Part shown: positions 22,310-63,220 of the stretch, one piece after another
Layout: each line of letters starts with the position of its first letter
How positions within the stretch are numbered: the first letter of the stretch is position 1
Assembly: GCA_023251805.1 (NCBI GenBank)
Contig: JAHEYB010000002.1
Span: forward strand, 35,038 to 99,037
Direction of reading: 5' to 3'
Source: Bacteroidota bacterium
GTDB taxonomy: Bacteria > Bacteroidota > Bacteroidia > 2-12-FULL-35-15
DNA: 64,000 bases
Notes under the pieces: model-generated
The model's input: only the letters and a program-made list of their open reading frames with translations
What the model was told of the DNA's origin: nothing
Databases searched by the model: none
Position numbers and translations under genes: made by a program

Positions 22310-22354
22310 ATGTTTATAAAATTCTATTTTCTAATTTGCTTCCGTTTTCTACAC

Positions 22355-22480
22355 ACCCCTAACCCCTCTCAAGAGGGGAATAATCATGTGCTCCATTTTT
22401 ACATTTTCAAAAAAACGATTCGTAAATTCGTTTTTGTAATTAGCATTCATTAATCCCCCTGGCCCCCTTTACAAAGGGGG
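22355..22480. repeat. pair of C-run/G-run hairpins in the nuoL-nuoM spacer
   Basis: CCCCTCT-ca-AGAGGGG (about 22363-22378) and CCCCCTTT-ac-AAAGGGGG (about 22463-22480, immediately after the nuoL stop). A third related copy is at 30575-30601. Confidence 0.5.
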
Positions 22481-22482
22481 AA

Positions 22483-24381
22483 TTAAAACAACTGTGTAAA
22501 CAAAATCAGCACGATGCTAATTACCATTACAAAAATATAGAAGCCGATGTTTCCTGTTTGCGCGAATCGTATTGTTCCACTCATCCAGTTAACTGCGGTT
22601 CCTACACCATTTACAAGTCCGTCTACAATTTGATTGTCCACCATTCTATGAAATGCATCCGCAATAAAATTCAATGGTTTGGTAATCAGTTTTTCATAAA
22701 TTTCATCTACCCAATACTTGTTGTAAATTAATTTGTGAGCAGGTTTTAAGTCCTCCCCTTCAGCATCTGGCAGGGTCGCTTTTTTAACATATGTTGTGTA
22801 TGCATAATAGATAGAACCAATCATCACAACCGTTGCAACGCCCATTAAGATGTATTCAGTTTCGTGAGACAAGTGGTGAACTAAACGGAAAGAAGAAGCT
22901 TCAAACACTGGGCTTAAAAATTCTTCTAAGAAATGAGTGCCACCTAATACTGCAGGAATACCAACCAATCCACCAACAACAGAAAGTACTGCCAATATCA
23001 TCAACGGAATGGTCATTGATTTTGGTGATTCGTGTAAGTGATGTTCTTGTTCGTGTGTTCCTCTGAATTTATTTTTGAAGGTTAAGAAATACAAACGGAA
23101 CATGTAGAAGGTTGTCATAGCTGCACCTAAAACGCCTAAGAACCATAATAATTTATTGTGTTCGAATGCATGTGCTAAAATTTCATCTTTAGAGAAAAAT
23201 CCTGATAAAGGGAAACAGCCTGCTATGGCAAGTGTTCCGATTAAGAATGTGATGTGTGTAACAGGAATGTATTTTCCTAAGCCGCCCATTTTACGAATGT
23301 CTTGTTCGCCACTCATTGCGTGAATCACACTTCCTGCACCAAGGAATAATAACGCTTTGAAGAATGCGTGTGTCATTACGTGAAACACCGCTCCGGTATA
23401 AGCACCTACTCCAAGAGCGAGGAACATATATCCCAACTGTGAAACGGTAGAATATGCTAATACTTTTTTAATATCGTTTTGTGCTAAGCCGATTGTTGCA
23501 GCAAACAAAGCGGTGCAAATACCGATGATTGCAACAACGCTCATTGCAGTTGGAGAAAGTGTATATAAAATGTTTGAGCGAGCAATCATGTAAATACCTG
23601 CTGTTACCATGGTAGCTGCGTGGATCAATGCGGAGACAGGAGTTGGTCCGGCCATCGCATCGGGCAACCACGTATACAAAGGAAGCTGAGCGCTTTTTCC
23701 CATTGCACCGATAAACAACAACAATGTAATTGCAGTAATTGTGGGATTTCCAGAAGCCATATTTTTTGCTTGTTCGAATACATCGTTGTAGCCGATGCTA
23801 CCAAACGTTACAAAAATTAAAATGATTCCTAATAAAAATCCTAAGTCGCCCACACGATTCATAACGAATGCTTTTTTCGCAGCGTTGTTGTAAGCTGTAT
23901 TCTTGAACCAGAAACCGATTAACAAATAGGAGCAGAGTCCAACACCCTCCCAACCAACAAACATAATGAGGTAGTTAGAGCCCATCACTAATAATAACAT
24001 AAAGAAAATAAACAAGTTTAAGTATGCGAAGAAGCGAGAGAATCCTTCATCGTGACTCATATAACCTGTAGAATACAAATGAATTAAAAATCCAATTCCG
24101 GTGATGATTAATAAAAATAAAGAAGAAAGTGGATCAATTAAAAAAGAAAAAGGAATAGAAAGTTTTCCGGCAGAAATCCAGTTGAATAATTCGATGGTGT
24201 ATTCTTTTTGAACTCCACCCTTCAATTCAAAAAATATTCCAAGAGAAATAATGAATGATCCTAAGATAACACCACTTCCAATTGTGCCGACAATTCCTTT
24301 CGATAATTTTTTTCCGAATAGTCCAATGATAATAAATCCTATCAGGGGAAGAAGCGGAATAAGCCAAACTAATTTTATCAT
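22483..24381 (-). CDS. nuoL: NADH-quinone oxidoreductase subunit L
   Basis: 632 aa, antiporter-like, with the long C-terminal extension. Confidence 0.85.
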   Translation of the reverse strand: MIKLVWLIPLLPLIGFIIIGLFGKKLSKGIVGTIGSGVILGSFIISLGIFFELKGGVQKEYTIELFNWISAGKLSIPFSFLIDPLSSLFLLIITGIGFLIHLYSTGYMSHDEGFSRFFAYLNLFIFFMLLLVMGSNYLIMFVGWEGVGLCSYLLIGFWFKNTAYNNAAKKAFVMNRVGDLGFLLGIILIFVTFGSIGYNDVFEQAKNMASGNPTITAITLLLFIGAMGKSAQLPLYTWLPDAMAGPTPVSALIHAATMVTAGIYMIARSNILYTLSPTAMSVVAIIGICTALFAATIGLAQNDIKKVLAYSTVSQLGYMFLALGVGAYTGAVFHVMTHAFFKALLFLGAGSVIHAMSGEQDIRKMGGLGKYIPVTHITFLIGTLAIAGCFPLSGFFSKDEILAHAFEHNKLLWFLGVLGAAMTTFYMFRLYFLTFKNKFRGTHEQEHHLHESPKSMTIPLMILAVLSVVGGLVGIPAVLGGTHFLEEFLSPVFEASSFRLVHHLSHETEYILMGVATVVMIGSIYYAYTTYVKKATLPDAEGEDLKPAHKLIYNKYWVDEIYEKLITKPLNFIADAFHRMVDNQIVDGLVNGVGTAVNWMSGTIRFAQTGNIGFYIFVMVISIVLILFTQLF

Positions 24382-24449
24382 ATTCTTTAATTTAAAATCA
24401 GAATTTTATTCTGATAGACTTTAAAAAGTCAGGATACAATCCTGACATA

Positions 24450-24767
24450 CTACCATTTTAATTTATTCAAAATATTAATGTCTGATGATTTTGTGTTTCT
24501 GTACACCATCATCAAAATTGCCAATCCAACTGCTACTTCTGCAGCAGCAACTGCCATAATAAAAAATACAAATACTTGTCCTTTGCTATCTGACAAATAG
24601 CTAGAGAATGCAACAAGTAACAAATTCACTGCGTTCAACATTAGCTCAACAGACATAAAGATGATGATTGCATTTCTTCTAAGCATAACACCAGCAACAC
24701 CAATTGTGAAGAGAACTGTGCTTAAAAGTAAATACCACTCAATCGGAATTATTTGTATTGCACTCAT
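24450..24767 (-). CDS. nuoK: NADH-quinone oxidoreductase subunit K
   Basis: 105 aa with 3 TM helices and typical nuoK length and position. Confidence 0.8.
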
Positions 24768-24928
24768 TTTTTTAGATGTTAGATATTAGATGTTAGATAT
24801 TAGATTTGATACCGCTCACCTTCTACTTATTTTTATGTTATTTATAATTTCAATTAAACTAATTTATTGTTTCATCTGCACACTTGCCTTCGCGAAGCTT
24901 CAGCGAAGCACGGTCAGAAATCAGCACA

Positions 24929-25429
24929 TCATTTTATACTTTTCTTACCTAACATTACTGCACCAACCATTGCTGACAATAACAATACAGATGACAATTC
25001 GAATGGTAATAAAAAATCGTTGAACAATGTTTTTCCTAAATTTTCGATAAGTCCGATGTTCGGATTAAATGTATTTGTTGCTTGAATGGTAGAAGCACCT
25101 TTTAATGCGCCAACCAACACCAACAACAATAAACCAGAAGCAACAACTGCGGATGTTTTTAGCCAAACGCTTTTGTGTGGTTCAGTTTCTTTATTCAAAT
25201 TTAAAAGCATGATTAGGAAGAGGAACAAGACCATGATTGCGCCAGCATACACAATGATGTGAACAGCAGCAAGGAATTGAGCATTCAGCAATACATAGTG
25301 TCCCGCGATTGCGAAAAAAGTCATTACCAAATACAATACACTGTGTATTGGATTTTTGGTAGATACCACTCTAATTGCGAACATAATCGCAAGGAAAGTA
25401 AGTAGGTAAAACAAGTATGTTGTAATCAT
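24929..25429 (-). CDS. nuoJ: NADH-quinone oxidoreductase subunit J
   Basis: Start set at ATG 25429 (MITTYLFYLLTF...). The track's 5' extension to 25474 would read through the REP-like element. Confidence 0.8.
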   Translation of the reverse strand: MITTYLFYLLTFLAIMFAIRVVSTKNPIHSVLYLVMTFFAIAGHYVLLNAQFLAAVHIIVYAGAIMVLFLFLIMLLNLNKETEPHKSVWLKTSAVVASGLLLLVLVGALKGASTIQATNTFNPNIGLIENLGKTLFNDFLLPFELSSVLLLSAMVGAVMLGKKSIK

Positions 25430-25452
25430 AATATTGTTTTTCGTTTTTGGTT

Positions 25453-25495
25453 CCCTTCGATATGTCTGCTTCAACGCAGAATGCTCAGGGTGACA
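25453..25495. repeat. REP-like element (family A variant) in the nuoI-nuoJ spacer
   Basis: CCCTTCGATATGTCTGCTTCAACGCAGAATGCTCAGGGTGACA. Confidence 0.55.
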
Positions 25496-25510
25496 ATAGT
25501 TTTTAAAAAA

Positions 25511-26122
25511 TTAATGATGTCCAGCAACTTTTGCTTTTTTATTTTTATCAAATGTTTGATTGTGTGCGTAGTTTTTATCCAATTTAAATCCTTTCACATC
25601 AGGTGTTTGGCGTTTCGTTAAGTCAATTGGATTGTTTTTGTCTTCAACCAAAATACTTTTCCCGTAAATAAATTCTTTACGTGTATAGAAACTCTCTACT
25701 TTTCTGTCTGTTAGAAATATGGCTTCTTTCGGACAAGCTTCTTCACAATCTCCACAGAAGATACAGCGCAACATATTTATTTCATACGTTGCAGCATATT
25801 TTTCTTCTCGGTATAAATGTTCTTCTCCAGGTTTGCGTTCAGCAGATGTCATTGTAATTGCTTCAGCTGGACAAGCAACAGCACATAGTCCGCAAGCAGT
25901 ACAACGTTCTGCTCCTTTTTCATCACGTTTCAAAACATGTTGTCCTCGATAAATTCCGCTGAACTCACGTGTTTGCTCCGGATATTTTATGGTTGCTGAT
26001 TTTTTAAAAAGGTGAGTGAATGTAATCCACATCCCGCTAAAAATAGCTGGCAGATACATTTTCTCAATAAGCGTCATTTCTTTTTTTGAAACAACTTGGG
26101 ATCTGTTTGTTAGTGCTTGCAT
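25511..26122 (-). CDS. nuoI: NADH-quinone oxidoreductase subunit I (2x[4Fe-4S] ferredoxin)
   Basis: Two CxxCxxCxxxCP motifs (CTACGLCAVACP; CIFCGDCEEACP). Confidence 0.85.
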   Translation of the reverse strand: MQALTNRSQVVSKKEMTLIEKMYLPAIFSGMWITFTHLFKKSATIKYPEQTREFSGIYRGQHVLKRDEKGAERCTACGLCAVACPAEAITMTSAERKPGEEHLYREEKYAATYEINMLRCIFCGDCEEACPKEAIFLTDRKVESFYTRKEFIYGKSILVEDKNNPIDLTKRQTPDVKGFKLDKNYAHNQTFDKNKKAKVAGHH

Positions 26123-26128
26123 TTTATT

Positions 26129-27175
26129 TTATTTAGCAAAATATGCCATTATCTCATGGCGCATCATCCATGAGCCTGTTAATACTAAGTTCAATATCGA
26201 CAATGGAATTAATATTTTCCAGCCGAGGTTCATCAATTGATCGTAACGGAAACGTGGCAATGTCCAACGAACCCACATGAAGAAAAAGATGAATCCAACA
26301 ATTTTCATGAATAAGAATACAAAACCTAAAATTGCCAACCAGTTTGGATCGTGCACCCAGCGACCGATTAAGGGCATGTTATATCCACCAAAATAGAATG
26401 TAGATATTACAGCAGAAGAAACAAACATGTTAATGTATTCAGCAAACAAGAACAGTCCTAATTTCATAGAGCTGTACTCGGTGTGATATCCACCAACTAA
26501 TTCTGTTTCACATTCAGGTAAATCGAATGGTGCGCGATTTGTTTCAGCAAAGGCACAAATCACAAATATTAAACAACCTAATGGTTGAACTAAAACGTTC
26601 CAGTGCCAACCGTGTTGTTGTTCAGCAATTTCGCCAGTGCTTAGTGTTCCAGTTACCATTACTAATGCGATGATTGAAATTCCCATCGCTACTTCATAAC
26701 TAATCATTTGTGACGAAGCGCGAATCGCGCCCAACAAAGAATATTTATTGTTAGACGCCCAACCACCAATCATGATTCCATAAACACCAATAGATAATAC
26801 ACCAAATAAATACAGAATTCCGATGTTCACATCAGCAATTTGCATTGGATAATCTGTTCCGCCAATGTTGATTGATTTTCCCCAAGGAATAATTACACCT
26901 GTCATACAAGCAGTAAGCATACACAATCCTGGTCCGATAATAAAAAGTGCTTTATTCGAAACACTTGGAATCATCTCTTCTTTCATGAACATTTTTACTG
27001 CATCGGCCAGTGGTTGTAAAATTCCGAATGGCCCTGCTCTATCAGGACCAATACGGTCTTGAAGAAATGCGGCAATTTTTCTTTCGGCATAGGTGCTGTA
27101 TGTTGCCACCAAAAGTGTGATTGAAAAAACAATCAATACTAAAATGGCTTTATATATTAGAAATTCTAATCCCAT
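26129..27175 (-). CDS. nuoH: NADH-quinone oxidoreductase subunit H
   Basis: 348-aa polytopic protein with conserved NuoH/ND1 sequence. Confidence 0.85.
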   Translation of the reverse strand: MGLEFLIYKAILVLIVFSITLLVATYSTYAERKIAAFLQDRIGPDRAGPFGILQPLADAVKMFMKEEMIPSVSNKALFIIGPGLCMLTACMTGVIIPWGKSINIGGTDYPMQIADVNIGILYLFGVLSIGVYGIMIGGWASNNKYSLLGAIRASSQMISYEVAMGISIIALVMVTGTLSTGEIAEQQHGWHWNVLVQPLGCLIFVICAFAETNRAPFDLPECETELVGGYHTEYSSMKLGLFLFAEYINMFVSSAVISTFYFGGYNMPLIGRWVHDPNWLAILGFVFLFMKIVGFIFFFMWVRWTLPRFRYDQLMNLGWKILIPLSILNLVLTGSWMMRHEIMAYFAK

Positions 27176-27178
27176 ATC

Positions 27179-28171
27179 TTATTTTTTTCCAGCAATTTGT
27201 TTTTGTTGTTTGCCGATATCTAATTTCAATTGTGCTAAACTTTCGTAGTGATTTTGTGAAATCACGGAATGGCGATTGATGTGGGAAGGTTTTTCGATTA
27301 CCCAATCTTTTGCATCTTTTTTCTCGAAACGACAATCGTTACAAATCCAGTCGATTGCTTCACCCCACTGATCTTTACGAGATGTTACTCTCAACACATC
27401 ATTTCCTTTCATCCAGATTGCTACTTTCCCTGAACATTTGGTGCAATTGCGATGAGCGTCCATTGGTTTTGTAAACCAAACACGACTTTTGAAACGCCAT
27501 GTTCTATCTGTTAATGCACCAACCGGACAAACATCAATAACGTTTCCGGAGAAATCGTTATCAATTGCCTTCTCAATGTATGTGCTAATTTCAGAGGCAT
27601 CACCACGGAACAACATTCCTTGGTAACGATTATTTGTAAGTTGATCAGCTACTTTAATACAGCGGAAACACATGATACAACGCGTCATGTGTAATTTGAT
27701 GTATGGTCCGATGTCGATTAAATTAAATGTTCTTCTGGAAAAATCGTAACGGGTTTTTGCTAATCCGTGTTCGTAACCTAAATCTTGTAAATGACATTCT
27801 CCTGCTTGATCGCAGATAGGACAATCAAGTGGGTGATTGATTAATAAAAATTCAACAACCCCTTTGCGTGCATCTAATACTTCAGGAGAAGTCATGTTTA
27901 CCACTTCCATTCCATCCATAACATTTGTTCTGCAAGACGCAACAGGCTTAGGCATTGGACGAGGGTCTTTTTCGGAGCCTTTTGTAACTTTTACAATACA
28001 CGTACGGCAATATCCGCCACTCGTTTTTAATTTTGAATAATAGCACATAGTAGGGGGAGCAACTTTTGCATCCACCTCCGGATTTTTATCTACAAGCATT
28101 CTAGCCGCTTGCAAGATTGTTGTCCCATCAGGAACTTCAATCATATGACCATCTATTGTAATTTTTGCCAT
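27179..28171 (-). CDS. nuoG: NADH-quinone oxidoreductase subunit G (short form: 2Fe-2S plus 4Fe-4S domains only)
   Basis: N-terminal 2Fe-2S ferredoxin-like CYYSKLKTSGGYCRTCIV and 4Fe-4S HPLDCPICDQAGECHLQD. At 330 aa it lacks the molybdopterin-like domain. Confidence 0.8.
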   Translation of the reverse strand: MAKITIDGHMIEVPDGTTILQAARMLVDKNPEVDAKVAPPTMCYYSKLKTSGGYCRTCIVKVTKGSEKDPRPMPKPVASCRTNVMDGMEVVNMTSPEVLDARKGVVEFLLINHPLDCPICDQAGECHLQDLGYEHGLAKTRYDFSRRTFNLIDIGPYIKLHMTRCIMCFRCIKVADQLTNNRYQGMLFRGDASEISTYIEKAIDNDFSGNVIDVCPVGALTDRTWRFKSRVWFTKPMDAHRNCTKCSGKVAIWMKGNDVLRVTSRKDQWGEAIDWICNDCRFEKKDAKDWVIEKPSHINRHSVISQNHYESLAQLKLDIGKQQKQIAGKK

Positions 28172-28244
28172 TTTCTAACTAAGTCAAAAGTTTTAAAGTC
28201 AAAATTCAAAAGAAATCAAAAAGTTTAAAATCAAAAAATTAAAA

Positions 28245-28595
28245 TTAATCTTTTAAGTTAATAATAATTGATGCTAATACTTTTGAGATTTCCATTAATT
28301 CTGTCTTATCATTTTTCATTAAATCATTATTCAATTCATATCCGTCTTCAATTACTTCCATCCAATAATCCGATTCATTTGCAGAGCGTAAGGCAATTTC
28401 ATAAAATCTAATTAGCTCCTTTTTTGAACTACTTACTTTTGCCTCTCTTACATTCGCTCCAACGGATGTTCCACTTCTTAATAATTGATCTCTTAATGGA
28501 TAATCTACGCTACTTGCTTTTAATTCTCGTGTTAGTTTAACTATTCTAACTGCAAATTTTTTAGTTCTAACTCTTATATCATTTTCGTACTTCAC
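28245..28595 (-). CDS. four-helix-bundle protein (23S rRNA intervening-sequence protein family; Avd-like fold) inserted between nuoG and nuoF
   Basis: 116 aa, all-helical. Motif pattern KKFAVRIVKLTREL...DQLLRSGTSVGANVREA...ELIRFYEIALRSANESDYWMEV is typical of the family. Flanked by GTCAAAAG octamer arrays. Confidence 0.7.
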   Translation of the reverse strand: MKYENDIRVRTKKFAVRIVKLTRELKASSVDYPLRDQLLRSGTSVGANVREAKVSSSKKELIRFYEIALRSANESDYWMEVIEDGYELNNDLMKNDKTELMEISKVLASIIINLKD

Positions 28596-28657
28596 AATCT
28601 TCCTTTTTGTTTTTTCTTGCTTTTGAATTTTGACTTTCCTCTCTTATGCCCTTCGTG

Positions 28658-30001
28658 TTATGCTCCAGCCAACTGATGCACACTATAATAATGTTTAACA
28701 TCCTTTATTTTTTCCGGATGCTTGATATACTCTTCGAATTCTGAACGGAAGTGACGAATAGCACTTGCCACAGGCCATGCAGCAGCATCACCTAAAGGAC
28801 AAATTGTATTCCCTTCAATTTTTCTTTGAATATCCCAAAGCAAATCTATGTCGCTTGGTTTACCATGACCTTCAATAATTCTATGAAGAATTTTTTCCAT
28901 CCAACCTGTTCCTTCACGACATGGAGAACATTGTCCGCAGCTTTCATGATGATAGAAACGAGCGAATGTGTAAAGATTTTTTACGATGCTGGCTGTTTCA
29001 TCATACACAATAAATCCACCTGAACCCAACATTGTGCCTGTTGCGAAACCGCCTTCACTTAGTGATTCGTATGACATCAAACGCGGTTCGCCTTTATCAT
29101 TTTTCAAAATTAAATCGGCAGGTAAAATAGGAACAGAAGAACCTCCAGCAACTACTGCTTTTAATTTATTTCCGTTAATGATTCCACCGCAATATTCTTC
29201 TGAGTATATAAATTCTTCAACAGGTAATCCTAATTCAATTTCGTAAACACCTGGTTTATTAATATGTCCAGATGCAGAAATTAATTTTGTTCCTGTACTT
29301 CTTCCAATTCCAATTTTTGCATATTCATCTCCACCCATCATTACGATTGGACAAACTGCTGCAATTGTTTCAACGTTATTTACAACAGTGGGACAACCCC
29401 ATACACCAGCTATAGCGGGGAATGGCGGTTTGATACGCGGGTTTCCGCGTTTTCCTTCTAATGATTCTAACAATGCTGTTTCTTCACCGCAGATATATGC
29501 TCCTCCACCAACTTGCACGTAGCAGTCGTGAGAGAAATCTGAGCCTAAAATGTTTTTTCCTAATAATCCTGCTGCATAAGCTTCATCCAGCGCTTTCTCT
29601 AAAATTCGTGCAACATAAAAATATTCTCCACGGATATAGATGTAAGATGTTTTTGCTCCTAATGCATAGGATGAAGTAATCATTCCTTCTATCAATAGAT
29701 GAGGAATCACTTCCATCAAGTAGCGGTCTTTGAATGTTCCCGGCTCCGATTCATCCGCATTACAAACAAGATAACGCTCAACACCTTCTGGTCTTGCAAG
29801 GAAACTCCATTTCATTCCGGTTGGGAAACCAGCACCACCACGACCTCTTAATCCTGATTTTTTCACCTCTTCTAACACTTCGGGAGGAGTCATTGTTTTC
29901 AATACTTTCTCCACAGATGCGTAGCCACCATGTTGACGATACACTTCAAGTGTAGCAATTCCAGGAACTTTGTCATTAAGAATTAAAAGTTTCTTCCCCA
30001 T
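28658..30001 (-). CDS. nuoF: NADH-quinone oxidoreductase subunit F (51 kDa; FMN/NADH-binding)
   Basis: Contains the [25 protein letters not shown] site, the [12 protein letters not shown] 4Fe-4S site and the GRGGAGFP motif. Start overlaps the nuoE stop by 1 nt. Confidence 0.9.
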
Positions 30002-30540
30002 TATAAAGTATTTTTATAATCCATGTCTGTATAACTTCTTTGTTTTCCAGCAGCACGATATTCTTCTAATAAATTATCTACTTTTTCGAACGTTAAATTT
30101 TCGTGATACGATGCTCCACATTGTAATAATGGTGCCGTTCCACAGCTTCCTAAACATTCAACTGTTTTAATGGTAAACATTCCATCTTTTGTAGTTTCGC
30201 CTTCTTTTATTCCTAATTTTTTCTCTAAGTGTTTTACGATATCTTCTGCTCCGCGAGTCCAGCAAGAAGAAGTACGACAAACTTCCAACAAACATTTGCC
30301 AACAGGTTTTAAATTGTACATCGAATAAAAAGATGCTACTTCATACACTTCAATTGGTTTAATGTTTAAAACAGAAGCAACGTAATCCATTGTTTCAGGG
30401 CTTAACCAACCACCAAATTCAGCCTGAGCAATGTGCAAAATCGGAAGTAAAGCCGACTTGTGTTTGCCTTCAGGATACCGCTTAATCATCTTGTGAACCA
30501 AGGCAAGCGTTTCTTCGTTAAATTTTATTTCTTGTGACAC
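30001..30540 (-). CDS. nuoE: NADH-quinone oxidoreductase subunit E (24 kDa; 2Fe-2S)
   Basis: Thioredoxin-like 2Fe-2S cysteines (CRTSSC ... CLGSCGTAP). Confidence 0.85.
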   Translation of the reverse strand: MSQEIKFNEETLALVHKMIKRYPEGKHKSALLPILHIAQAEFGGWLSPETMDYVASVLNIKPIEVYEVASFYSMYNLKPVGKCLLEVCRTSSCWTRGAEDIVKHLEKKLGIKEGETTKDGMFTIKTVECLGSCGTAPLLQCGASYHENLTFEKVDNLLEEYRAAGKQRSYTDMDYKNTL

Positions 30541-30574
30541 TATTATATTTTGTTTTAATAATAATCATTCTCTC

Positions 30575-30601
30575 ATCCCCCTGCCCCCTTCAAAGGGGGA
30601 C
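30575..30601. repeat. C-run/G-run hairpin in the nuoD-nuoE spacer
   Basis: TCCCCCTGCCCCCTT-ca-AAGGGGGA; the same family as 22355-22480. Confidence 0.45.
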
Positions 30602-30660
30602 TTGCTCCGAAACATTATTTTTTCTTTGCCACTTGCCAACTTTTTTTGTTGCCAACTGAA

Positions 30661-31878
30661 CTACGCATCTAATTCTCCAGCGATGACATTCATGCTACTC
30701 ATTGTTAAAATTGCATCTGATAATAATCCGCCTCTAATCATTTCTGCGTAAGCTTGATAATAAATAAAGCATGGTCTGCGCATATGCAAACGATAAGGAG
30801 TTCTACCACCATCACTAATTAAGTAATAACCAAGTTCTCCGTTACCACCTTCAACCGCATGATATACTTCCCCTTTCGGAATTTCTGTTTCCCCCATCAC
30901 AATTTTAAAGTGATAAATTAATGCTTCCATGTTGTTGTATACTTCTTCTTTTGGAGGAAGGAAAAATTCAGGAACATCGGCATGAAAAATACCTTCCGGT
31001 TCTTTTTTAATTTTTGCGATTGCTTGATGAATAATTTTCACGCTCTCCCACATTTCTTGCTGACGAACCATGAAGCGATCGTAAGTGTCGCCTTGTGTTC
31101 CAACTGGAATAATAAAATCAAACTCTTCGTAAGAGCAATATGGATTCATTACACGCACATCGTAATCTACTCCTGCTGCACGTAAGTTTGGTCCAGAAAA
31201 ACTATAGTTCAATGCACGCTCTGCTGATATTGGTCCGCAGTTAATTGTACGATCCATGAAAATTCTGTTTCTCATTAAAAGATTTTCAAATTCTTTTAAT
31301 GCAGGAGGGAAGTCAATTAAAAATTTATCGAGTAAGTCCCACGCTTTCGGAGAGAAATCTCTTTCTAATCCACCAATGCGACCAATGTTTGTTGTTAAAC
31401 GTGCTCCACATAATTCTTCATAGATATCATAAATGCGTTCGCGCATTTGGAAGATATATAAGAAGCCAGTCATTGCACCTGTATCCACGCCAATAACCGA
31501 ATTACAAATAACGTGATCAGAAATTCTTGCCAATTCCATAATGATCACTCGCAGATATTGAACACGTTTTGGAATTTCAACTCCCAATAATTTTTCTACT
31601 GTCATGTGCCAACCCATGTTGTTGATTGGAGAAGAGCAATAATTTAAACGATCGGTGATAGGAGTAATTTGATAGTACGGTCTGCGTTCTGACAACTTTT
31701 CAAATGCACGGTGAATGTATCCAACAGTTGCTTCGGAGTCCATAATTATTTCGCCATCCATTTTCAACACGTTCTGAAAAATACCGTGTGTAGCGGGATG
31801 TGTAGGGCCAAGGTTAAGAGTAGAGTATTCTTTCTCTATTAGCTCTTGGTTTGTATTTATGTTCTTCTCTTTGCTCAT
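30661..31878 (-). CDS. nuoD: NADH-quinone oxidoreductase subunit D (49 kDa)
   Basis: Start at ATG 31878 (MSKEKNINT...). The track's extension to 31917 would translate the GTCAAAAG repeat array. Conserved NuoD sequence runs through the C-terminus. Confidence 0.85.
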   Translation of the reverse strand: MSKEKNINTNQELIEKEYSTLNLGPTHPATHGIFQNVLKMDGEIIMDSEATVGYIHRAFEKLSERRPYYQITPITDRLNYCSSPINNMGWHMTVEKLLGVEIPKRVQYLRVIIMELARISDHVICNSVIGVDTGAMTGFLYIFQMRERIYDIYEELCGARLTTNIGRIGGLERDFSPKAWDLLDKFLIDFPPALKEFENLLMRNRIFMDRTINCGPISAERALNYSFSGPNLRAAGVDYDVRVMNPYCSYEEFDFIIPVGTQGDTYDRFMVRQQEMWESVKIIHQAIAKIKKEPEGIFHADVPEFFLPPKEEVYNNMEALIYHFKIVMGETEIPKGEVYHAVEGGNGELGYYLISDGGRTPYRLHMRRPCFIYYQAYAEMIRGGLLSDAILTMSSMNVIAGELDA

Positions 31879-31930
31879 TATCTTCTGTAAGTCAAAAGTT
31901 TTAAAGTCAAAAGTCAAAAAGACTTTATCT

Positions 31931-32281
31931 TTATTTTTTTAAGTTAATTATTATTGTTTCAAGCACTTTTGAAATTTCTAATAATTCGCTTTTATCATTT
32001 TTCATTAAATCACTCTTTAAATCATATCCTTCTTCTAATACTTCCATCCAATAATCTGTTTCATTTGCAGAACGTAAAGCAATTTCATAGTACCTTATCA
32101 ATTCTTTTTTTGAACTACTCGCTTACCCTTCTCTAACATTTGCACCAACTGATGTTCCGCTACGCAATATTTGATCTCTTAAAGAATATTCAACACCCTT
32201 AGCTTTTAATTCAATTGTTAACTTTATTATTCTTACTGCAAACTTCTTTGTTCTAAGCCTAATATCCTTTTCGTATTCCAT
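31931..32281 (-). pseudogene. second four-helix-bundle (IVS-family) gene copy, interrupted by an in-frame TAA at about codon 52
   Basis: Minus-strand translation MEYEKDIRLRTKKFAVRIIKLTIELKAKGVEYSLRDQILRSGTSVGANVREG*ASSSKKELIRYYEIALRSANETDYWMEVLEEGYDLKSDLMKNDKSELLEISKVLETIIINLKK, about 75% identical to the 28245..28595 copy. Stop at about 32123-32125. Flanked by GTCAAAAG arrays. Confidence 0.55.
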
Positions 32282-32359
32282 AAATCCTTGCAACAATCAA
32301 AAGCTTTTTTGACTTTTTACCTTTTCTTTTGACTTTCTCCCTTTTGACTTTTGACTTTC

Positions 32360-32866
32360 CTACCTTCCAAACATTTTATCATCTTTATCTTCACGTGTTC
32401 CATCTTCCAATGCGTATTCTTTTCTCATTGGGAAATATCCTAAATCATCCATATTTAAAATGCGTTTTAGGTTTGGATGGCCTCTGAAAATAATTCCGAA
32501 GAAATCATACTCTTGTCTTTCCATCCAATTAGCAGCAGAAAAAACAGGAGAGATGGAGGGAACATTCACATCGCTACTGCTAAAAAATATTTTTATTCTG
32601 ATCCGTAAATTTTTTTGAAGGTTGTGTAACTGATACATCACAGCAAATTCTTGTCCTGCATTATCAGGATAATGAATAGTTGCCATGGTTGTTAAATATT
32701 GAAAAGCAAGTTCTTCATCTTTGTAAAGAAAATCGGCTACATCACAAATGATATCACGCTTCACAACAAACTCAGGATAATCAACATTCATCTTAGATGA
32801 AATAAATCCATCACCGAATTGTGTTTTTAGCTTTTGTTCAACTATCGTTAATAAATTATTCTCCAT
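32360..32866 (-). CDS. nuoC: NADH-quinone oxidoreductase subunit C (30 kDa)
   Basis: 168 aa with conserved NuoC sequence, positioned between nuoD and nuoB. Confidence 0.8.
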   Translation of the reverse strand: MENNLLTIVEQKLKTQFGDGFISSKMNVDYPEFVVKRDIICDVADFLYKDEELAFQYLTTMATIHYPDNAGQEFAVMYQLHNLQKNLRIRIKIFFSSSDVNVPSISPVFSAANWMERQEYDFFGIIFRGHPNLKRILNMDDLGYFPMRKEYALEDGTREDKDDKMFGR

Positions 32867-32928
32867 TTTTTTCTTTTAACTTTCCTGCCCGACCGGCAGG
32901 CGGGTGAATTTCCGCTCTTTTAACTTTC
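32867..32928. repeat. miniature hairpin element with flanking 10-15-bp direct repeats (nuoB-nuoC spacer copy)
   Basis: Minus-strand reading: GGAAAGTTAAAAG-AGCGGAAATTCACCCGCCTGCCGGTCGGGCAGG-AAAGTTAAAAG. A near-identical copy lies inside rnr at 62981-63034. Confidence 0.55.
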
Positions 32929-33489: not shown

Positions 33490-33539
33490 TACTACGAATT
33501 ACGAATTTTAACGAATTACAAATCTGTGTGTTTGAAAAA

Positions 33540-33986
33540 TTAATTTAAAGTAATCACCATTCCGGGGACTTGTTTGGCGGCTTTTCCGCTTTGAACAATT
33601 TCAACAGAACCAATTTCCAACTTATCACCTAACTTTTTTTCCTTGTGTAATTTTTCTATCGCCTCCATCGCTCCTTTTGTAAACCTGTTTCCTTGCTGCG
33701 TATATTCAACAAACACAAAATCTTTTTTTTCCTTAACTTTCAATGTGATAATAAAATAACTAACAGAGGCGCCTTTATCTAATGCCGTTAATTCTTTTTT
33801 GCAAGCCATAAATTCATTATAGGTCATTGTACAGTCGCCAGTTTTTCCACAAAAAGAAAATGCAGATTTTGTATCTTGAGCAAAAGATAATTGTGATGTA
33901 ATAAAAACAATGAACGCGATTCTTAATAAATACTTCACCCCTTTTGACTTTTCGCTTTGTACTCTTTTGACTTTTCTTATTCCCAC
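33540..33986 (-). CDS. hypothetical secreted Cys-containing protein encoded between nuoA and nuoB
   Basis: Signal-peptide-like KYLLRIAFIVFITSQLSFAQ, then FSFCGKTGDCTMTYNEFMACKKEL. The likely true start is GTG at about 33938. The track start at 33986 is also GTG and overlaps the nuoA stop. Confidence 0.45.
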   Translation of the reverse strand: MGIRKVKRVQSEKSKGVKYLLRIAFIVFITSQLSFAQDTKSAFSFCGKTGDCTMTYNEFMACKKELTALDKGASVSYFIITLKVKEKKDFVFVEYTQQGNRFTKGAMEAIEKLHKEKKLGDKLEIGSVEIVQSGKAAKQVPGMVITLN

Positions 33987-34354
33987 TTTAAAGCACCTTT
34001 TTTAATGATATAATAAAAGCCAACCAATAGAAAGGCTACAAAAGTTAGCATTTCCACAAATCCGGTTAAGCCCAATTGTTTAAAATTAACTGCCCAAGGG
34101 TACATAAAAATCACCTCCACATCGAACAATACGAATAGGATGGCTACAAGAAAATACTTTATGGAAAAGGGCAAGCGTGCGTTTCCTTGCACTTCGATAC
34201 CACATTCAAAGGTGTCGTTTTTAATTTTTGATTTCTTTTTTGGTCCTAGTTTATGCGTTAAAAACAGCATAAACATTACAAATCCAAGGGCAACAATAAA
34301 CATTAAAGCAATTGGAAGAAAATCAACAGGAGTACTCTGAACCGATAACAACAT
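33977..34354 (-). CDS. nuoA: NADH-quinone oxidoreductase subunit A
   Basis: 125 aa with 3 TM helices and conserved FECG motif (FECGIEVQGNARLPFSIKYFLVAILF). Confidence 0.85.
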   Translation of the reverse strand: MLLSVQSTPVDFLPIALMFIVALGFVMFMLFLTHKLGPKKKSKIKNDTFECGIEVQGNARLPFSIKYFLVAILFVLFDVEVIFMYPWAVNFKQLGLTGFVEMLTFVAFLLVGFYYIIKKGALKWE

Positions 34355-60799: not shown

Positions 60800-63220
60800 A
60801 TGGCTAAGAAGTTTCAACGCAAAACAGAGGGAAAGAAGAAGAGCTTTTTTTTCGAAGAAATACTAAAAGTATTGTCTTCAAACCGCAATAAAGCACTCAA
60901 TTACAAGCAGATAGCAGCCGAATTAAAAATCACTGATTTTGGCCAAAGACAACTCATTAACGTTATTTTAGAAGAATTGAAGAAGAATGGTTCTGTAATT
61001 GAACCCGAACGAGGTAAATTCAAAATAAAACGCGCAGAACTTTTTGTTTCTGGCCGTGTAGACATGACTTCCACTGGGGCTGCATACATCATTTCTGAAG
61101 ATACCGAAGAAGACGTTATTGTTGCACCTAAAAAAACGCTTAATGCCATGCATGGTGATACTGTTAAAGTGCGTGTGTTCCCAAAAGGAAAAGGCAAACA
61201 AGAAGGTGAAATCATAGAAGTTATAGAGCGTGCAAAGACTGAATTTGTTGGCACATTGCAGGTTTCACCCAGATTTGCCTTTCTCGTACCTACCAACATT
61301 AAAATTCATGTCGACATTTACATCCCATTGGAAAAGTTGAATGGCGCTAAAGATGGGCAAAAAGCCATTGCAAAAGTTATCGAGTGGCCTAAAAATGGTG
61401 TTAATCCTATTGGTGAAATTAAAAGTGTGTTGGGTGATGTTGGTGAAAACAATACGGAAATGCATGCAATTTTGGCGGAATACGGACTTCCATACGAATT
61501 TCCAAAAGATGTAGAACGCGCTGCCGACCTCATTCCTATTAAAATTACACAAGAAGAAATCGCAAAAAGACGTGACTTCAGAAAAACCACCACATTCACC
61601 ATTGATCCGGTGGATGCAAAAGATTTCGATGATGCACTTTCCATACAAAAATTAAAGAATGGAAACTGGGAAATAGGCGTTCACATTGCCGATGTAAGCC
61701 ATTACGTGAAGCCCGATTCGATGATTGACAAAGAAGCAATTTCGCGCGCTACTTCTGTATACCTTGTAGACAGAGTTGTTCCGATGCTTCCCGAAGTTTT
61801 ATCAAACAATGTTTGTTCTCTTCGACCGAATGAAGAAAAATTGTGTTTCTCTTCTGTGTTTGAAATGACGGACGATGCAGAGGTGGTAGCAGAATGGTTT
61901 GGCAGAACAATTATTAATTCCGACAGACGCTTTACATACGAAGAAGCCCAACAGGTAATAGAAACAGAGGAAGGCGATTTTAAAGAAGAAGTTTTAACCT
62001 TAGATAGGTTAGCAAAAATATTACGCAACAATCGTTTTAAGAAAGGAAGTATTGCGTTTGAAAAAATGGAAGTGAAATTTCATTTGGATGAAGTTGGAAA
62101 TCCTACGGGAGTATTTTTTAAAGTAGCGAAAGATTCCAATCAATTGATTGAAGATTTTATGCTTCTAGCCAATAGAAAAGTCGCAGAGTTTGTTGGGAAA
62201 AAAAAGAGTGAAAGAGGAGAAAATCATAAGTCAAAAGAAAACAATAAAGAACCTCAACGGCCTTTTGTATATCGTATTCACGACAAACCGAATCCAGATA
62301 AGTTGCAAAATTTTTCGGAATTTGTGGCGAAGTTTGGTTATAAATTAAACGTGAAAAACATCAACACGGTTGCCGACTCAATGAACAACTTGTTGAAAGA
62401 AGTGAATGAGAAAAAAGAATCGGGAATGATTGAAATGCTTGCTATTCGCACCATGGCGAAGGCGGTATACACCACAAAAAATATTGGTCACTACGGATTA
62501 GGGTTTGATTATTATACACATTTTACTTCTCCTATTCGTAGATATCCTGATGTGATGGTGCACAGATTGTTGCAACATTATTTGGATGGAGGAAAAAATC
62601 CGGACATTGATAAATTGGAAGAACAGTGTAAACACTCTTCTGATATGGAGAAGCTGGCAGCAGATGCGGAGCGCTCTTCCATCAAATACAAACAAGTACA
62701 ATACTTAACGGATAAAATCGGAGAGGAGTTTGATGGTGTGATTTCGGGTGTTACGGAGTGGGGAATATTTGTAGAGATTATTGAAAATCATTGCGAAGGC
62801 ATGGTGCGTTTGCGTGAACTGCGTGACGATAATTATTATTTTGATGAAGACAATTATTGTTTGCGTGGCCGTAAATTCGGAAAAGTATTAACGCTTGGAG
62901 ATACTGTGCGTATTGAGATTAAGCGTGCCGACTTGGTAAAAAAACAATTGGATTTTGCATTGGTAGAAGTGTTTGAAGAGAAGTCAAAAGGAGAAACTCA
63001 CCCGCCTGCCGGTCGGGCAGGAAAGTCAAAAGGCGAGCAACGTTCGTTTTCAAAACGCGAACAACACAAAGCAAAAAGTAAAAATTACAAAGAGGAAATG
63101 AAGTCGGCAACGCAACGAAATGCTAATTCAAAACAAGAATCATCGCCTCCCCCTAAAAAAGAAGAGCCGAGGAAACCAACAGGGAATGCCTTTTTGGATG
63201 AATGGGGGTTTGAGGTGTAA
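60800..63220 (+). CDS. rnr: ribonuclease R (RNB-family 3'-5' exoribonuclease) with Lys-rich C-terminal tail
   Basis: N-terminal HTH/cold-shock-like region, an RNB catalytic domain (FTIDPVDAKDFDDALS; GHYGLGFDYYTHFTSPIRRYPDVMVHR), an S1 domain (GVISGVTEWGIFVEI) and a basic low-complexity tail. Confidence 0.9.
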   Translation: MAKKFQRKTEGKKKSFFFEEILKVLSSNRNKALNYKQIAAELKITDFGQRQLINVILEELKKNGSVIEPERGKFKIKRAELFVSGRVDMTSTGAAYIISEDTEEDVIVAPKKTLNAMHGDTVKVRVFPKGKGKQEGEIIEVIERAKTEFVGTLQVSPRFAFLVPTNIKIHVDIYIPLEKLNGAKDGQKAIAKVIEWPKNGVNPIGEIKSVLGDVGENNTEMHAILAEYGLPYEFPKDVERAADLIPIKITQEEIAKRRDFRKTTTFTIDPVDAKDFDDALSIQKLKNGNWEIGVHIADVSHYVKPDSMIDKEAISRATSVYLVDRVVPMLPEVLSNNVCSLRPNEEKLCFSSVFEMTDDAEVVAEWFGRTIINSDRRFTYEEAQQVIETEEGDFKEEVLTLDRLAKILRNNRFKKGSIAFEKMEVKFHLDEVGNPTGVFFKVAKDSNQLIEDFMLLANRKVAEFVGKKKSERGENHKSKENNKEPQRPFVYRIHDKPNPDKLQNFSEFVAKFGYKLNVKNINTVADSMNNLLKEVNEKKESGMIEMLAIRTMAKAVYTTKNIGHYGLGFDYYTHFTSPIRRYPDVMVHRLLQHYLDGGKNPDIDKLEEQCKHSSDMEKLAADAERSSIKYKQVQYLTDKIGEEFDGVISGVTEWGIFVEIIENHCEGMVRLRELRDDNYYFDEDNYCLRGRKFGKVLTLGDTVRIEIKRADLVKKQLDFALVEVFEEKSKGETHPPAGRAGKSKGEQRSFSKREQHKAKSKNYKEEMKSATQRNANSKQESSPPPKKEEPRKPTGNAFLDEWGFEV
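62981..63034. repeat. miniature hairpin element with flanking direct repeats, embedded in-frame in the rnr 3' region
   Basis: GAAGTCAAAAGG-AGAAACTCACCCGCCTGCCGGTCGGGCAGG-AAAGTCAAAAGG. The core is identical to the nuoB-nuoC spacer copy (32867-32928, opposite orientation). It encodes ...SKGETHPPAGRAGKSKGEQ... in the RNase R tail. Confidence 0.55.

What the first reader, a model, noticed from the sequence alone, without database searches (positions are those of the whole stretch)
28172..28657. Four-helix-bundle (IVS/Avd-like) gene cassettes flanked by GTCAAAAG octamer arrays inserted into the complex I operon
Two paralogous 116-aa four-helix-bundle genes interrupt an otherwise canonical nuoA-N operon, between nuoG and nuoF (28245-28595) and between nuoD and nuoC (31931-32281). 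Each is bracketed by an array of AGTCAAAAG on one side (28180-28215; 31918-31953) and its inverted complement CTTTTGACTTT on the other (28620-28650; 32300-32355). This looks like a cassette with inverted terminal octamer arrays. This protein family is known from 23S rRNA intervening sequences and as the Avd accessory protein of diversity-generating retroelements, but no reverse transcriptase is present here. The same octamer lies upstream of the nuoD, nuoG and nuoC start codons, so it may double as an A-rich translation enhancer in this SD-less lineage.
Basis: partly seen in the sequence, partly recalled or inferred. Interest (0 to 1): 0.6.

Follow-up and report, generated by a model that had tools for sequence, protein, structure and literature searches.

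The report
IVS-like hairpin gene cassettes inside nuo operon
Two small four-helix-bundle genes sit between complex I genes, each enclosed by inverted arrays of a 7-base repeat, which is the anatomy of the ribosomal-RNA 'intervening sequences' that carry this gene family; the same architecture surrounds about two thirds of family members sampled across bacterial phyla, always inside ordinary operons.

Summary
The repeat period is 7 (GTCAAAA), not 8. The nuoC-nuoD copy is a pseudogene with an in-frame TAA, which an independent assembly also shows. One array coordinate is wrong. The copies in front of nuoD and nuoG are the U-rich antisense form.

On the nuo mRNA strand each cassette reads: sense heptamer array, promoterless PF05635 gene, antisense array. 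Both predicted folds pair the arrays into a terminal stem that loops the ORF out between two cistrons.

Relatives carry the same cassettes at nuoA-B, C-D, E-F, F-G and H-I. Other relatives have bare junctions, ORF-less hairpins or a decayed ORF. The protein is under strong purifying selection (dN/dS 0.04-0.16).

The pattern holds across the family:
- Of 77 genes from many phyla, none next to rRNA, 67.5% have inverted flanks, against 3.9% of 535 neighbouring genes.
- The arms are about 4.5 tandem heptamers with an AAT[T/G] core.

This matches the Coxiella 23S IVS: terminal stem, S23p ORF, tandem heptamers, RNase III excision.

Best reading: an IVS-type stem-loop cassette living in an mRNA operon. 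RNA pairing, RNase III processing and 4HB binding to the arrays are all inferred, not shown. Interest is fairly high. I rate it a new variant of a known kind.

The parts
28610..28637 (-). 5' arm of cassette 1. It is a sense heptamer array, GGAAAGUCAAAAUUCAAAAG on the mRNA, and begins 21 nt after the nuoF stop codon.
   Evidence: Inverted repeat I1, 28 nt, 89% complementary, with an 18-nt perfect core. It pairs with 28195-28222 in both the MFE and the centroid fold.
28245..28595 (-). 4HB-1, an intact 116-aa four-helix-bundle gene (PF05635 / TIGR02436) with a GTG start and no promoter or terminator of its own.
   Evidence: Pfam 4.8e-21; TIGR02436 9e-26. PDB 2RLD 4e-18. dN/dS 0.06-0.16 against orthologues. 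No excess of promoter- or terminator-like sites.
28181..28222 (-). 3' arm of cassette 1. It is an antisense heptamer array that includes the conserved composite UUUUGAAUUUUGACUUUAAAACUUUUGACUUA, and ends 9 nt before the nuoG ATG (28171).
   Evidence: TRF period 7, 4.4 copies; inverted repeat I1. The composite is conserved in L081, L087, L090, L099 and L105.
32307..32358 (-). 5' arm array of cassette 2. It holds about 7 GUCAAAA-type units and starts directly after the nuoC stop codon.
   Evidence: TRF period 7, 7.4 copies; inverted repeats I1-I6. It pairs with 31889-31921 in the MFE and centroid folds, z = -3.4.
31931..32281 (-). 4HB-2, a PF05635 pseudogene with an in-frame TAA at 32123-32125 in place of the invariant Lys. 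Apart from that stop the frame is intact, and it is 84% identical to the nuoC-D copies of relatives.
   Evidence: An independent assembly calls it as 52 + 56 aa.
31889..31926 (-). 3' arm of cassette 2. It is an antisense array, GUCUUUUUGACUUUUGACUUUAAAACUUUUGACUU, ending 10 nt before the probable nuoD ATG at 31878.
   Evidence: TRF period 7, 4.3 copies; 17-nt perfect inverted repeat with 32342-32358.
33941..33971 (-). Solo sense array, two GAAAAGUCAAAAG units, at the junction between nuoA and orf148. It has no antisense partner and no 4HB gene.
32867..32928 (-). nuoB-nuoC junction. Two GGAAAGUUAAAAG units flank a G+C-rich hairpin, CACCCGCCUGCCGGUCGGGCAGG.
   Evidence: The same hairpin, flanked by AAGTCAAAAGG on both sides, occurs at 62980-63035.
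24772..24805 (-). Heptamer array of another unit (AUCUAAY, 4.9 copies) directly upstream of nuoK. Weaker arrays of yet other units lie upstream of nuoB (AAUUCGU, 33493-33525) and after nuoD (AGUUGGC, 30624-30660).
   Evidence: TRF; junction listing. AGUUGGC is the arm unit of the divergent 4HB paralogue at nuoH-I in L091 and L105.

Best explanation
Each element is an IVS-type stem-loop cassette living in a messenger-RNA operon rather than in 23S rRNA. It consists of a promoterless four-helix-bundle (PF05635) gene enclosed by two arms of about 4-5 tandem heptamers, sense on the 5' side and reverse-complement on the 3' side. The arms fill the space up to the neighbouring stop and start codons.

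**Shown**
- The anatomy of the two window cassettes.
- Its conservation in orthologous nuo cassettes.
- Its presence around most family members in many phyla, in operon-embedded, co-directional positions.
- Strong purifying selection on the protein.
- Gain, loss and relocation among nuo junctions.

**Inferred**
- The cassette is transcribed only as part of the nuo polycistronic RNA.
- The arms pair, so the ORF is looped out and the nuoF stop and nuoG start (or nuoC and nuoD) are brought together.
- As in the 23S IVS, the roughly 18-30-bp A/U-rich duplex is a substrate for RNase III. Cleavage would release a 4HB mRNA and cut the operon RNA into still-translatable pieces.
- More speculatively, the pentameric 4HB protein recognises its own heptamer arrays. 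That would explain three things: the protein is kept under selection; arm units differ between paralogues but match within a cassette; and the dead nuoC-D copy and ORF-less hairpins persist where an intact copy with the same unit is present.
For: **Window anatomy**
- Inverted arms and ORFs.
- MFE and centroid folds of both cassettes contain the long-range terminal stem (z = -1.9 and -3.4).
- No promoter or terminator excess. No Bacteroidetes TTTG...TAnnTTTG promoter in any 3' arm.

**Orthologous nuo cassettes**
- The architecture is the same at nuoA-B, C-D, E-F, F-G and H-I in relatives down to 59% protein identity.
- Across 7 F-G orthologues the 18-bp stem is 93.5% paired. Three pairs changed on both sides. 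Slid controls reach at most 61%.
- L107 carries GTCAGAA in both arms.
- A divergent paralogue uses AGTTGGC in the 5' arm and its complement in the 3' arm.

**Selection and history**
- dN/dS is 0.04-0.16 while dS is 0.9-2.0.
- The L087 nuoA-B copy is 90-93% identical to the nuoC-D copies of relatives, and L087 keeps an ORF-less hairpin at nuoC-D.

**Family-wide (77 genes)**
- Median inverted-flank score is 17. It is 8 in direct orientation, 7.6 after shuffling, and 7.5 for 535 neighbouring genes.
- 67.5% against 3.9% score at least 14 (p = 3e-31).
- A cassette's own 3' arm is the single best partner of its 5' arm in 27 of 85 cases.
- 59 of 77 have an upstream period-7 array and 60 of 77 a downstream one, with a median of about 4.5 copies and an AAT[T/G] core in about 70%.
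- Both neighbours are co-directional and within 150 nt in 67%, against 32% of controls.
- The host operons are ordinary: serC-serA, araD-araA, hemY-hemB, smpB-tsaB, mevalonate, nuoE-F.

**Precedent**
- The Coxiella IVS is 428 nt with a 28-bp terminal stem, an S23p ORF in the loop, 3-4 tandem heptamers before the start codon, and excision by RNase III (PMC4990558).
Against: - No transcript data exist, so RNA pairing and RNase III cleavage rest on analogy and energy models.
- Mismatches between the arms show no wobble bias (G.U 46 against A.C 40). Selection for RNA pairing therefore cannot be separated from DNA-level concerted evolution of the arms.
- The fold z-score for cassette 1 is only -1.9.
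- In the fold test, a crude control with the 3' flank reversed still gives at least 12 long-range pairs in 36 of 85 cases, against 64 of 85 for the real sequences.
- Sense-only arrays and solo 3' composites exist without a partner. The arrays may therefore have a function that does not need pairing.
- Cutting a long operon mRNA at several junctions could be costly, yet the cassettes are stably inherited.
- About a third of family members show no detectable inverted flanks.
Confidence: 0.55

Rival explanations
1. A DNA-level mobile or self-maintaining element. The inverted heptamer arrays act as terminal repeats, and the 4HB protein is the factor that spreads or maintains them. ORF-less heptamer hairpins would be the non-autonomous derivatives. 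This is analogous to RAYT genes flanked by REP sequences, with REPINs dispersed in the genome.
For: - Cassette positions differ among related genomes. One relocation, from nuoC-D to nuoA-B in L087, can be traced.
- ORF-less sense+antisense hairpins with the same unit as the local cassette are common.
- Period-7 arrays are the dominant tandem-repeat class in these loci, 280 against at most 74 for any other period. About half lie away from any 4HB gene.
- Arm mismatches show no RNA-type wobble bias.
- Arm units match within cassettes and differ between paralogues.
Against: - The protein is a 116-aa helical bundle with no recognisable nuclease, HUH or recombinase motif. Its only hits are PF05635/TIGR02436.
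- F-G and C-D copies behave as old, vertically inherited orthologues: dS is 0.9 within a position and 1.4-1.5 between positions. Movement is therefore rare.
- No target-site duplication is evident at filled versus empty junctions (not tested systematically).
- No relatives were found in viral contigs.
- The strong co-orientation with host transcription is not required by a DNA-level element.
Confidence: 0.2
2. A domesticated, operon-internal regulator. The 4HB protein binds the heptamer arrays on the nuo mRNA and tunes the stability or translation of neighbouring complex I cistrons. On this reading the cassette is now a host function of this Bacteroidota clade, not a passenger.
For: - Every homologue examined, down to 59% identity, sits in a nuo operon.
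- The protein is conserved nearly as well as the host subunits: 59-93%, against 75-93% for NuoD/NuoF and 52-82% for NuoC. dN/dS is 0.04-0.16.
- The 3' composite always abuts the next start codon, 3-25 nt away.
- nuo junctions without a 4HB gene also carry heptamer arrays.
Against: - The junction occupied varies (A-B, C-D, E-F, F-G, H-I). Some relatives lack a given cassette altogether, and one window copy is dead.
- The same architecture occurs in unrelated operons and, per the literature, in 23S rRNA. Nothing about it is specific to complex I.
Confidence: 0.15
3. The arrays are native intercistronic spacers or translation enhancers of an SD-less lineage. The 4HB genes merely landed next to them.
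For: - Sense arrays occur at junctions without a 4HB gene.
- Solo 3' composites lie just upstream of start codons of unrelated genes.
Against: - The copies before nuoD and nuoG are the U-rich complement, not A-rich.
- Relatives without the cassette have bare junctions of 5-12 nt.
- The same sense/antisense heptamer architecture surrounds family members in Clostridia and Cyanobacteria, lineages that use Shine-Dalgarno sequences (from my own knowledge).
- Only 3.9% of other genes in the same loci have inverted flanks.
Confidence: 0.05
4. The TTTG-rich 3' arms are internal promoters that restore expression of the genes downstream of the insertion.
For: The antisense arrays contain repeated TTTG, the core of both Bacteroidetes promoter boxes (from my own knowledge of the TTTG / TAnnTTTG consensus). 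They sit 3-25 nt upstream of start codons.
Against: - No TTTG-N17-23-TAnnTTTG match occurs in any of 8 cassette 3' regions, and almost no TAnnTTTG box.
- Sigma-70-type sites are not above shuffle expectation.
- The arms in other phyla use unrelated units.
Confidence: 0.03

Closest known systems
23S rRNA intervening sequences (IVS) that carry an S23p / PF05635 ORF, in Leptospira, Coxiella, Xanthomonas and Brucella (PMC4990558)
   Same: - Size of about 430-490 nt.
- Terminal complementary arms that form a roughly 18-30-bp stem.
- A PF05635 ORF in the loop.
- Tandem heptamers, variable in number, just upstream of the start codon.
- No promoter of its own; it rides on a host transcript.
- ORF decay is seen in some copies.
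   Different: - The host is a protein-coding operon (nuo and many others), not helix 25 or 45 of 23S rRNA.
- RNase III excision is not shown here.
- The ORFs here are under strong purifying selection, whereas the Coxiella ORF is decaying and probably untranslated.
Cyanobacterial STRR (short tandemly repeated repetitive) heptanucleotide sequences (PMC2670836; Mazel et al. 1990 from my own knowledge)
   Same: - Tandem 7-bp units in intergenic regions within operons, for example hupS-hupL.
- They can form hairpins.
- Their function is unknown; transcript stability or translational coupling has been suggested.
- The cyanobacterial 4HB cassettes found here are flanked by (TAATTCG)n arrays of this kind.
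   Different: - STRRs were described without any associated gene and only in heterocyst-forming cyanobacteria.
- Here the arrays bracket a PF05635 gene and occur in Bacteroidota, Clostridia, Acidobacteria and other phyla.
Avd, the accessory protein of diversity-generating retroelements (bAvd, PDB 4DWL; PMC10053308)
   Same: The protein superfamily is shared: PF05635-like pentameric four-helix bundles. The divergent nuoH-I paralogue gives a sub-threshold bAvd hit.
   Different: - No reverse transcriptase, template repeat or variable repeat lies within +/-10 kb.
- The window protein does not hit PF22296.
- A sequence profile finds PDB 2RLD and 2GSC but not bAvd.
RAYT / REP (REPIN) systems
   Same: A small gene is flanked by inverted copies of a short repeat. 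That repeat is also dispersed in the genome as gene-less hairpins in intergenic regions.
   Different: - There is no Y1/HUH transposase.
- The repeats are tandem heptamer arrays, not single palindromes.
- Mobility has not been demonstrated.

Membership tests
PF05635 / TIGR02436 four-helix-bundle (23S rRNA IVS protein) family | The sequence matches the family models above the curated cut-offs. | tested here: met
   4HB-1 scores 75.4 bits on PF05635 (cut-off 33.8) and 90.2 bits on TIGR02436 (cut-off 24). 4HB-2, with the stop masked, scores 78.7 and 91.1 bits. PDB 2RLD matches at 4e-18.
PF05635 / TIGR02436 four-helix-bundle (23S rRNA IVS protein) family | The conserved motif GxxRxxxSxxxNxxE (PMC3936711). 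| tested here: met
   The stretch QLLRSGTSVGANVRE is present. Among its residues, Q37, R40, T43, S44, G46, N48, V49 and E51 are invariant in the 24-sequence alignment.
23S rRNA intervening sequence (IVS) element | Located inside a 23S rRNA gene (helix 25 or 45). | tested here: not met
   Both cassettes lie between nuo genes. There is no rRNA or other Rfam hit in 18000-35000. None of the 80 distant loci shows conserved 23S motifs apart from one weak hit.
23S rRNA intervening sequence (IVS) element | Complementary termini form a stem that encloses the element and its ORF. | tested here: met
   Inverted repeats. The terminal stem appears in the MFE and centroid folds. It is 93.5% paired across 7 orthologues.
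23S rRNA intervening sequence (IVS) element | Excised from the host transcript by RNase III. | not testable with these tools
   This needs RNA end-mapping or an in vitro cleavage assay.
Diversity-generating retroelement (Avd component) | An adjacent reverse transcriptase with a template repeat / variable repeat pair. | tested here: not met
   The Pfam-annotated gene list for +/-10 kb around 4HB-1 contains only nuo genes, a Por-tail protein and a transporter. TR/VR repeats were not searched for explicitly.
STRR heptanucleotide repeats | Tandem 7-nt units in intergenic DNA within operons. | tested here: met
   TRF finds period-7 arrays at 24772-24805, 28181-28212, 31889-31919 and 32307-32358.
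STRR heptanucleotide repeats | Restricted to heterocyst-forming cyanobacteria, with the described units. | tested here: not met
   The window is from an uncultured Bacteroidota lineage (source names; Por_Secre_tail neighbour). Its units are GTCAAAA, ATCTAAY, AATTCGT and AGTTGGC.
RAYT/REPIN or IS/MITE-type mobile element | Encodes a transposase or recombinase, or depends on one, and makes target-site duplications. | tested here: inconclusive
   No transposase domain is present in the cassette. No obvious duplication appears when filled and empty junctions are compared, but this was not examined systematically.

The most novel reading that the evidence does not exclude
PF05635 four-helix-bundle pentamers are sequence-specific binders of tandem heptamer arrays of about five units. 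Protein and arrays together form a widespread, previously unrecognised class of operon-resident genetic elements. The 23S rRNA IVSs, the cyanobacterial STRR repeats (unexplained since 1990) and DGR Avd proteins would be three faces of this class. The protein either protects or processes the stem on the host transcript, or propagates the arrays, in the way RAYTs relate to REPINs.
Probability: 0.2. Interest if true: 0.85.

Novelty: new variant of a known kind. Interest (0 to 1): 0.7.

Why it matters
- The PF05635 'four helix bundle protein' is among the commonest unexplained small bacterial proteins. It is usually annotated gene by gene, and sometimes read as functionally linked to its neighbours, for example as CRISPR-associated when found between cmr3 and cmr2 (PMC3936711).
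- Suppose instead that these genes are IVS-type stem-loop cassettes hitch-hiking inside host transcripts. Guilt-by-association inferences for the family would then be misleading.
- The origin of 23S rRNA IVSs would become one special case of a general element.
- The heptamer STRR repeats of cyanobacteria would gain a candidate protein partner.
- Long operons such as nuo would be shown to tolerate, or exploit, intron-like insertions at cistron junctions.
- The work gives concrete, testable substrates: (GUCAAAA)n arms, RNase III, and purified 4HB.

Tried and rejected
- **Genome-contig scan with a 24-sequence profile.** It did not give the source genome or a within-genome census, but it served as the family-wide sample.
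- **Wobble test, G.U against A.C mismatches between arms.** The counts were 46 and 40, with no bias, so RNA-level and DNA-level selection could not be separated.
- **Internal promoter.** No Bacteroidetes consensus was found in 3' arms and no sigma-70 or terminator excess. Rejected as the main explanation.
- **Rfam.** No family covers the cassette.
- **Viral contigs.** No relatives, so there is no evidence for phage carriage.
- **Metagenome scan with the 25-nt 3' composite.** It returned 10 loci. Only one held a 4HB gene (again nuoF-4HB-nuoG). The rest were ORF-less hairpins or solo composites in front of start codons. This weakens the idea that the composite always marks a cassette.
- **Period 8.** TRF showed period 7.
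- **'Stop codons in all three frames' as the purpose of the arrays.** I dropped this because the window's own unit, GTCAAAA, contains no stop codon.
- **Other small genes with inverted flanks in the same loci.** Three PDDEXK_3 genes and one IS200-like gene have inverted flanks, but not heptamer arrays. The heptamer arms are therefore specific to PF05635.
- **Literature.** No paper in the searchable library links PF05635 genes to flanking heptamer arrays or to operon-embedded IVS-like cassettes. Ralph & McClelland 1993 and Vioque 1997 are not held.
Full report
**What is in the window**

The complex I operon lies on the - strand: nuoA 34354..33977 through nuoN at about 19398. Pfam identifies nuoA-G.

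Two PF05635 / TIGR02436 genes interrupt it:
- 4HB-1, 28595..28245, between nuoF and nuoG.
- 4HB-2, 32281..31931, between nuoC and nuoD. It is 78% identical to 4HB-1.

4HB-2 carries an in-frame TAA at 32123-32125, where the family has an invariant Lys. An independent assembly of the same organism calls it as 52 + 56 aa.

**Anatomy of the cassettes on the mRNA strand**

Each gene is preceded by sense copies of GUCAAAA-type units and followed by their reverse complement. This gives two inverted repeats:
- 28195-28222 / 28610-28637: 28 nt, 89% complementary, with a perfect 18-nt core.
- 31903-31919 / 32342-32358: 17 nt, 100% complementary.

TRF shows that the unit is a heptamer, not an octamer. 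All strong period-7 arrays in the 64-kb window lie in the nuo operon.

The copies in front of nuoG and nuoD are the U-rich antisense form. They are the 3' arm of the repeat, not an A-rich leader.

The arms nearly fill the intergenic space. In cassette 2 the 5' arm starts directly after the nuoC stop, and the 3' arm ends 10 nt before the likely nuoD ATG at 31878.

ViennaRNA places the arms in a long-range terminal stem that encloses the ORF. This holds in both the MFE and the centroid structure of both cassettes.

There is no excess of sigma-70-like promoters or terminators, no Bacteroidetes-type promoter in the 3' arms, and no Rfam match.

**Relatives**

Protein homologues at 59-91% identity come from uncultured Bacteroidota. 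Every one whose contig I examined sits in a nuo operon, but at varying junctions.

| Junction | Loci (calls) |
|---|---|
| nuoC-D | L081-85, L086, L090, P0054 (22, 23, 28, 83) |
| nuoF-G | L090-92, L099, L105, L106, L107 (28, 52, 82, 84, 85) |
| nuoA-B | L087-89 (27) |
| nuoH-I, divergent paralogue | L091, L105 (28, 82) |
| nuoE-F, distant Bacteroidota | L025 (55, 56) |

All of these have sense arrays upstream and antisense arrays downstream. A 32-nt 3' composite, TTTTGAMTTTTGACTTWDAAACTTTTGACTTA, is conserved right before the next start codon.

Junctions that lack the gene fall into three states:
- Bare: nuoF-G of 5 nt in L086, nuoC-D of 12 nt in L106.
- An ORF-less sense+antisense hairpin: nuoC-D in L087 and L105.
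- What looks like a decayed ORF: L107.

The arrays therefore come and go with the cassette.

**Age, selection and movement**
- The nuo-resident 4HB proteins are 59-93% identical to one another. NuoD and NuoF are 75-93% identical among the same genomes, and NuoC 52-82%.
- dN/dS is 0.04-0.16 while dS is 0.9-2.0. The protein is functional.
- dS groups F-G with F-G copies and C-D with C-D copies (about 0.9), against 1.4-1.5 between positions. Both cassettes are therefore old and mostly vertically inherited.
- The nuoA-B copy in L087 is 90-93% identical to the nuoC-D copies of relatives, and L087 retains an ORF-less hairpin at nuoC-D. This is a traceable relocation.

**Covariation of the arms**
- On 7 F-G orthologues the 18-bp stem is 93.5% paired. 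Three pairs changed on both sides. Sliding the partner by one column drops pairing to 61% or less. 18 of 500 column shuffles reach the observed score.
- L107 has GTCAGAA in both arms.
- The nuoH-I paralogue uses AGTTGGC and its complement.

**Family-wide test**

A profile scan returned 80 loci from Bacteroidota, Clostridia, Cyanobacteria, Acidobacteriota, Planctomycetota and other phyla. Identity to the query was at most 54%, and none was next to rRNA. I analysed 77 distinct genes.

| Measure | 4HB genes | Control |
|---|---|---|
| Median inverted-flank score | 17 | 8.0 direct orientation; 7.6 shuffled; 7.5 for 535 other genes in the same loci |
| Share scoring at least 14 | 67.5% | 3.9% (Mann-Whitney p = 3e-31) |
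| Both neighbours co-directional | 87% | 68% |
| Co-directional and within 150 nt on both sides | 67% | 32% (p = 5e-7) |

Further results:
- The arms are tandem heptamers, about 4.5 copies per arm. About 70% have an AAT[T/G] core: AATTCGT in cyanobacteria, AATGCGC in Clostridia, AATTCAA in Tidjanibacter, CATTGAC in Prevotella.
- Period 7 is by far the commonest tandem-repeat period in these loci. About half of those arrays lie within 150 nt of a 4HB gene, which is about 7% of the sequence.
- Arms match within a cassette and differ between cassettes. A cassette's own 3' arm is the single best partner of its 5' arm in 27 of 85 cases and in the top three in 43 of 85.
- The host operons are ordinary: serC-serA, araD-araA, hemY-hemB, smpB-tsaB, the mevalonate pathway, nuoE-nuoF.

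**Comparison with what is known**

The anatomy matches the Coxiella 23S rRNA IVS (PMC4990558):
- 428 nt, with a 28-bp terminal stem.
- An S23p (PF05635) ORF in the loop.
- 3-4 tandem heptamers (GACAGAT), variable in number, before the start codon.
- Excision by RNase III.

The elements here fail the IVS defining feature of residence in 23S rRNA. RNase III processing is untested.

They are not DGR components. There is no reverse transcriptase within +/-10 kb, and no bAvd match for the window protein.

The heptamer arrays resemble cyanobacterial STRRs: 7-bp tandem repeats that form hairpins between operon genes such as hupS-hupL, with unknown function (PMC2670836). The cyanobacterial 4HB cassettes in my sample are flanked by (TAATTCG)n.

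No paper in the searchable library connects PF05635 genes with flanking heptamer arrays or describes operon-embedded IVS-like cassettes. One paper read such genes between cmr3 and cmr2 as CRISPR-associated (PMC3936711).

**Mechanism**

*Shown:* the architecture, its conservation, its operon-embedded co-orientation, selection on the protein, and the turnover of positions.

*Inferred:*
- The cassette is transcribed only with the host operon.
- The arms pair and loop the ORF out between two cistrons.
- The duplex is cut by RNase III as in rRNA.
- The pentameric protein recognises its own heptamer arrays. PDB 2RLD and 2GSC each have five chains, and 2GSC is described as a homopentamer (PMC4990558). 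This step is the most speculative.

Binding of the protein to its own arrays would explain three observations:
- The protein stays under selection in a vertically inherited element.
- Arm units are specific to each paralogue.
- The dead nuoC-D copy and ORF-less hairpins persist where an intact copy with the same unit exists.

*Against:*
- Arm mismatches show no wobble bias (46 G.U against 40 A.C).
- Sense-only and solo-3' arrays exist.
- About a third of family members lack detectable arms.

Three rivals remain open: a DNA-level RAYT/REPIN-like element, a domesticated nuo mRNA regulator, and native spacers or promoters. The last is the least supported.

**Verdict**

The finding is real, with corrections. 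Its cassette reading is supported and turns out to be a general property of the family. I rate it a new variant of a known kind, namely an IVS-type element in mRNA operons. Interest is 0.7.

Noticed in passing
window 32880-32925 (- strand) and 62980-63035 (+ strand): A small G+C-rich hairpin, CACCCGCCTGCCGGTCGGGCAGG, occurs twice. Each copy is flanked by direct repeats of the local heptamer-type motif: GGAAAGTTAAAAG at the nuoB-nuoC junction, and AAGTCAAAAGG inside the Lys-rich C-terminal tail of an RNase R gene (60800..63220; RNB/CSD/S1 domains), where it is in frame. It looks like an insertion with target duplication into a heptamer motif.
   Followed up: partly
window 33540-33986 (- strand); L081 3341-3700 and 6084-6710; L090 3362-3991: Other ORFs without any Pfam hit are inserted in the nuo operon. 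In the window it is a 148-aa protein, possibly secreted, between nuoA and nuoB. In relatives there are ORFs of 119 aa and about 208 aa between nuoB-C and nuoD-E. The window ORF is flanked by sense arrays of two different heptamer units.
   Followed up: partly
window 30541-30660, 22310-22482, 25475-25510, 20769-20839, 19257-19397 (nuo junctions): Several other intergenic repeat families decorate the operon:
- TCCCCCTTTGWAGGGGGCAGGGGGAT-type hairpins (nuoD-E, and twice in nuoL-M).
- GTCACCCTGAGC...GAAGGGC (nuoI-J, nuoM-N).
- CTCCGCGACCTCAGCG...CTCTGCGG, after nuoN.

Relatives carry similar elements at other nuo junctions.
   Followed up: no
L029 178-564, L072 6444-6854, L034 7141-7554: Small PD-(D/E)XK nuclease genes (PF13366, about 130 aa) in the same distant loci are also enclosed by inverted repeats. 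Those repeats are longer palindromic elements, not heptamer arrays. This may be a second family of small genes carried on hairpin cassettes.
   Followed up: partly
L021 (Dolichospermum) 3203-9430; L067 (Nostoc) 2611-2642, 4451-4483: Cyanobacterial loci carry many extra (AATTACG)n / (TAATTCG)n arrays of about 4.7 units. L021 has seven in 10 kb, several of them apparently inside a long ORF. The unit is the same as in the arms of the local 4HB cassette. They look like STRR-type repeats.
   Followed up: no
L099 nuoA-B and nuoD-E junctions; L105/L106 nuoK-L junction; L107 8670-8765: nuo junctions of relatives hold ORF-less hairpins or arrays built from other heptamer units (AATGTTG, AGTACAA, AATCAGT). 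No cognate 4HB gene is visible on the available contig.
   Followed up: no
window 31878 vs 31917: The mechanical ORF call starts nuoD at TTG 31917, inside the 3' arm of cassette 2. The ATG at 31878 (MSKEKNIN...) fits the relatives' 400-403-aa NuoD and is the likely true start.
   Followed up: partly
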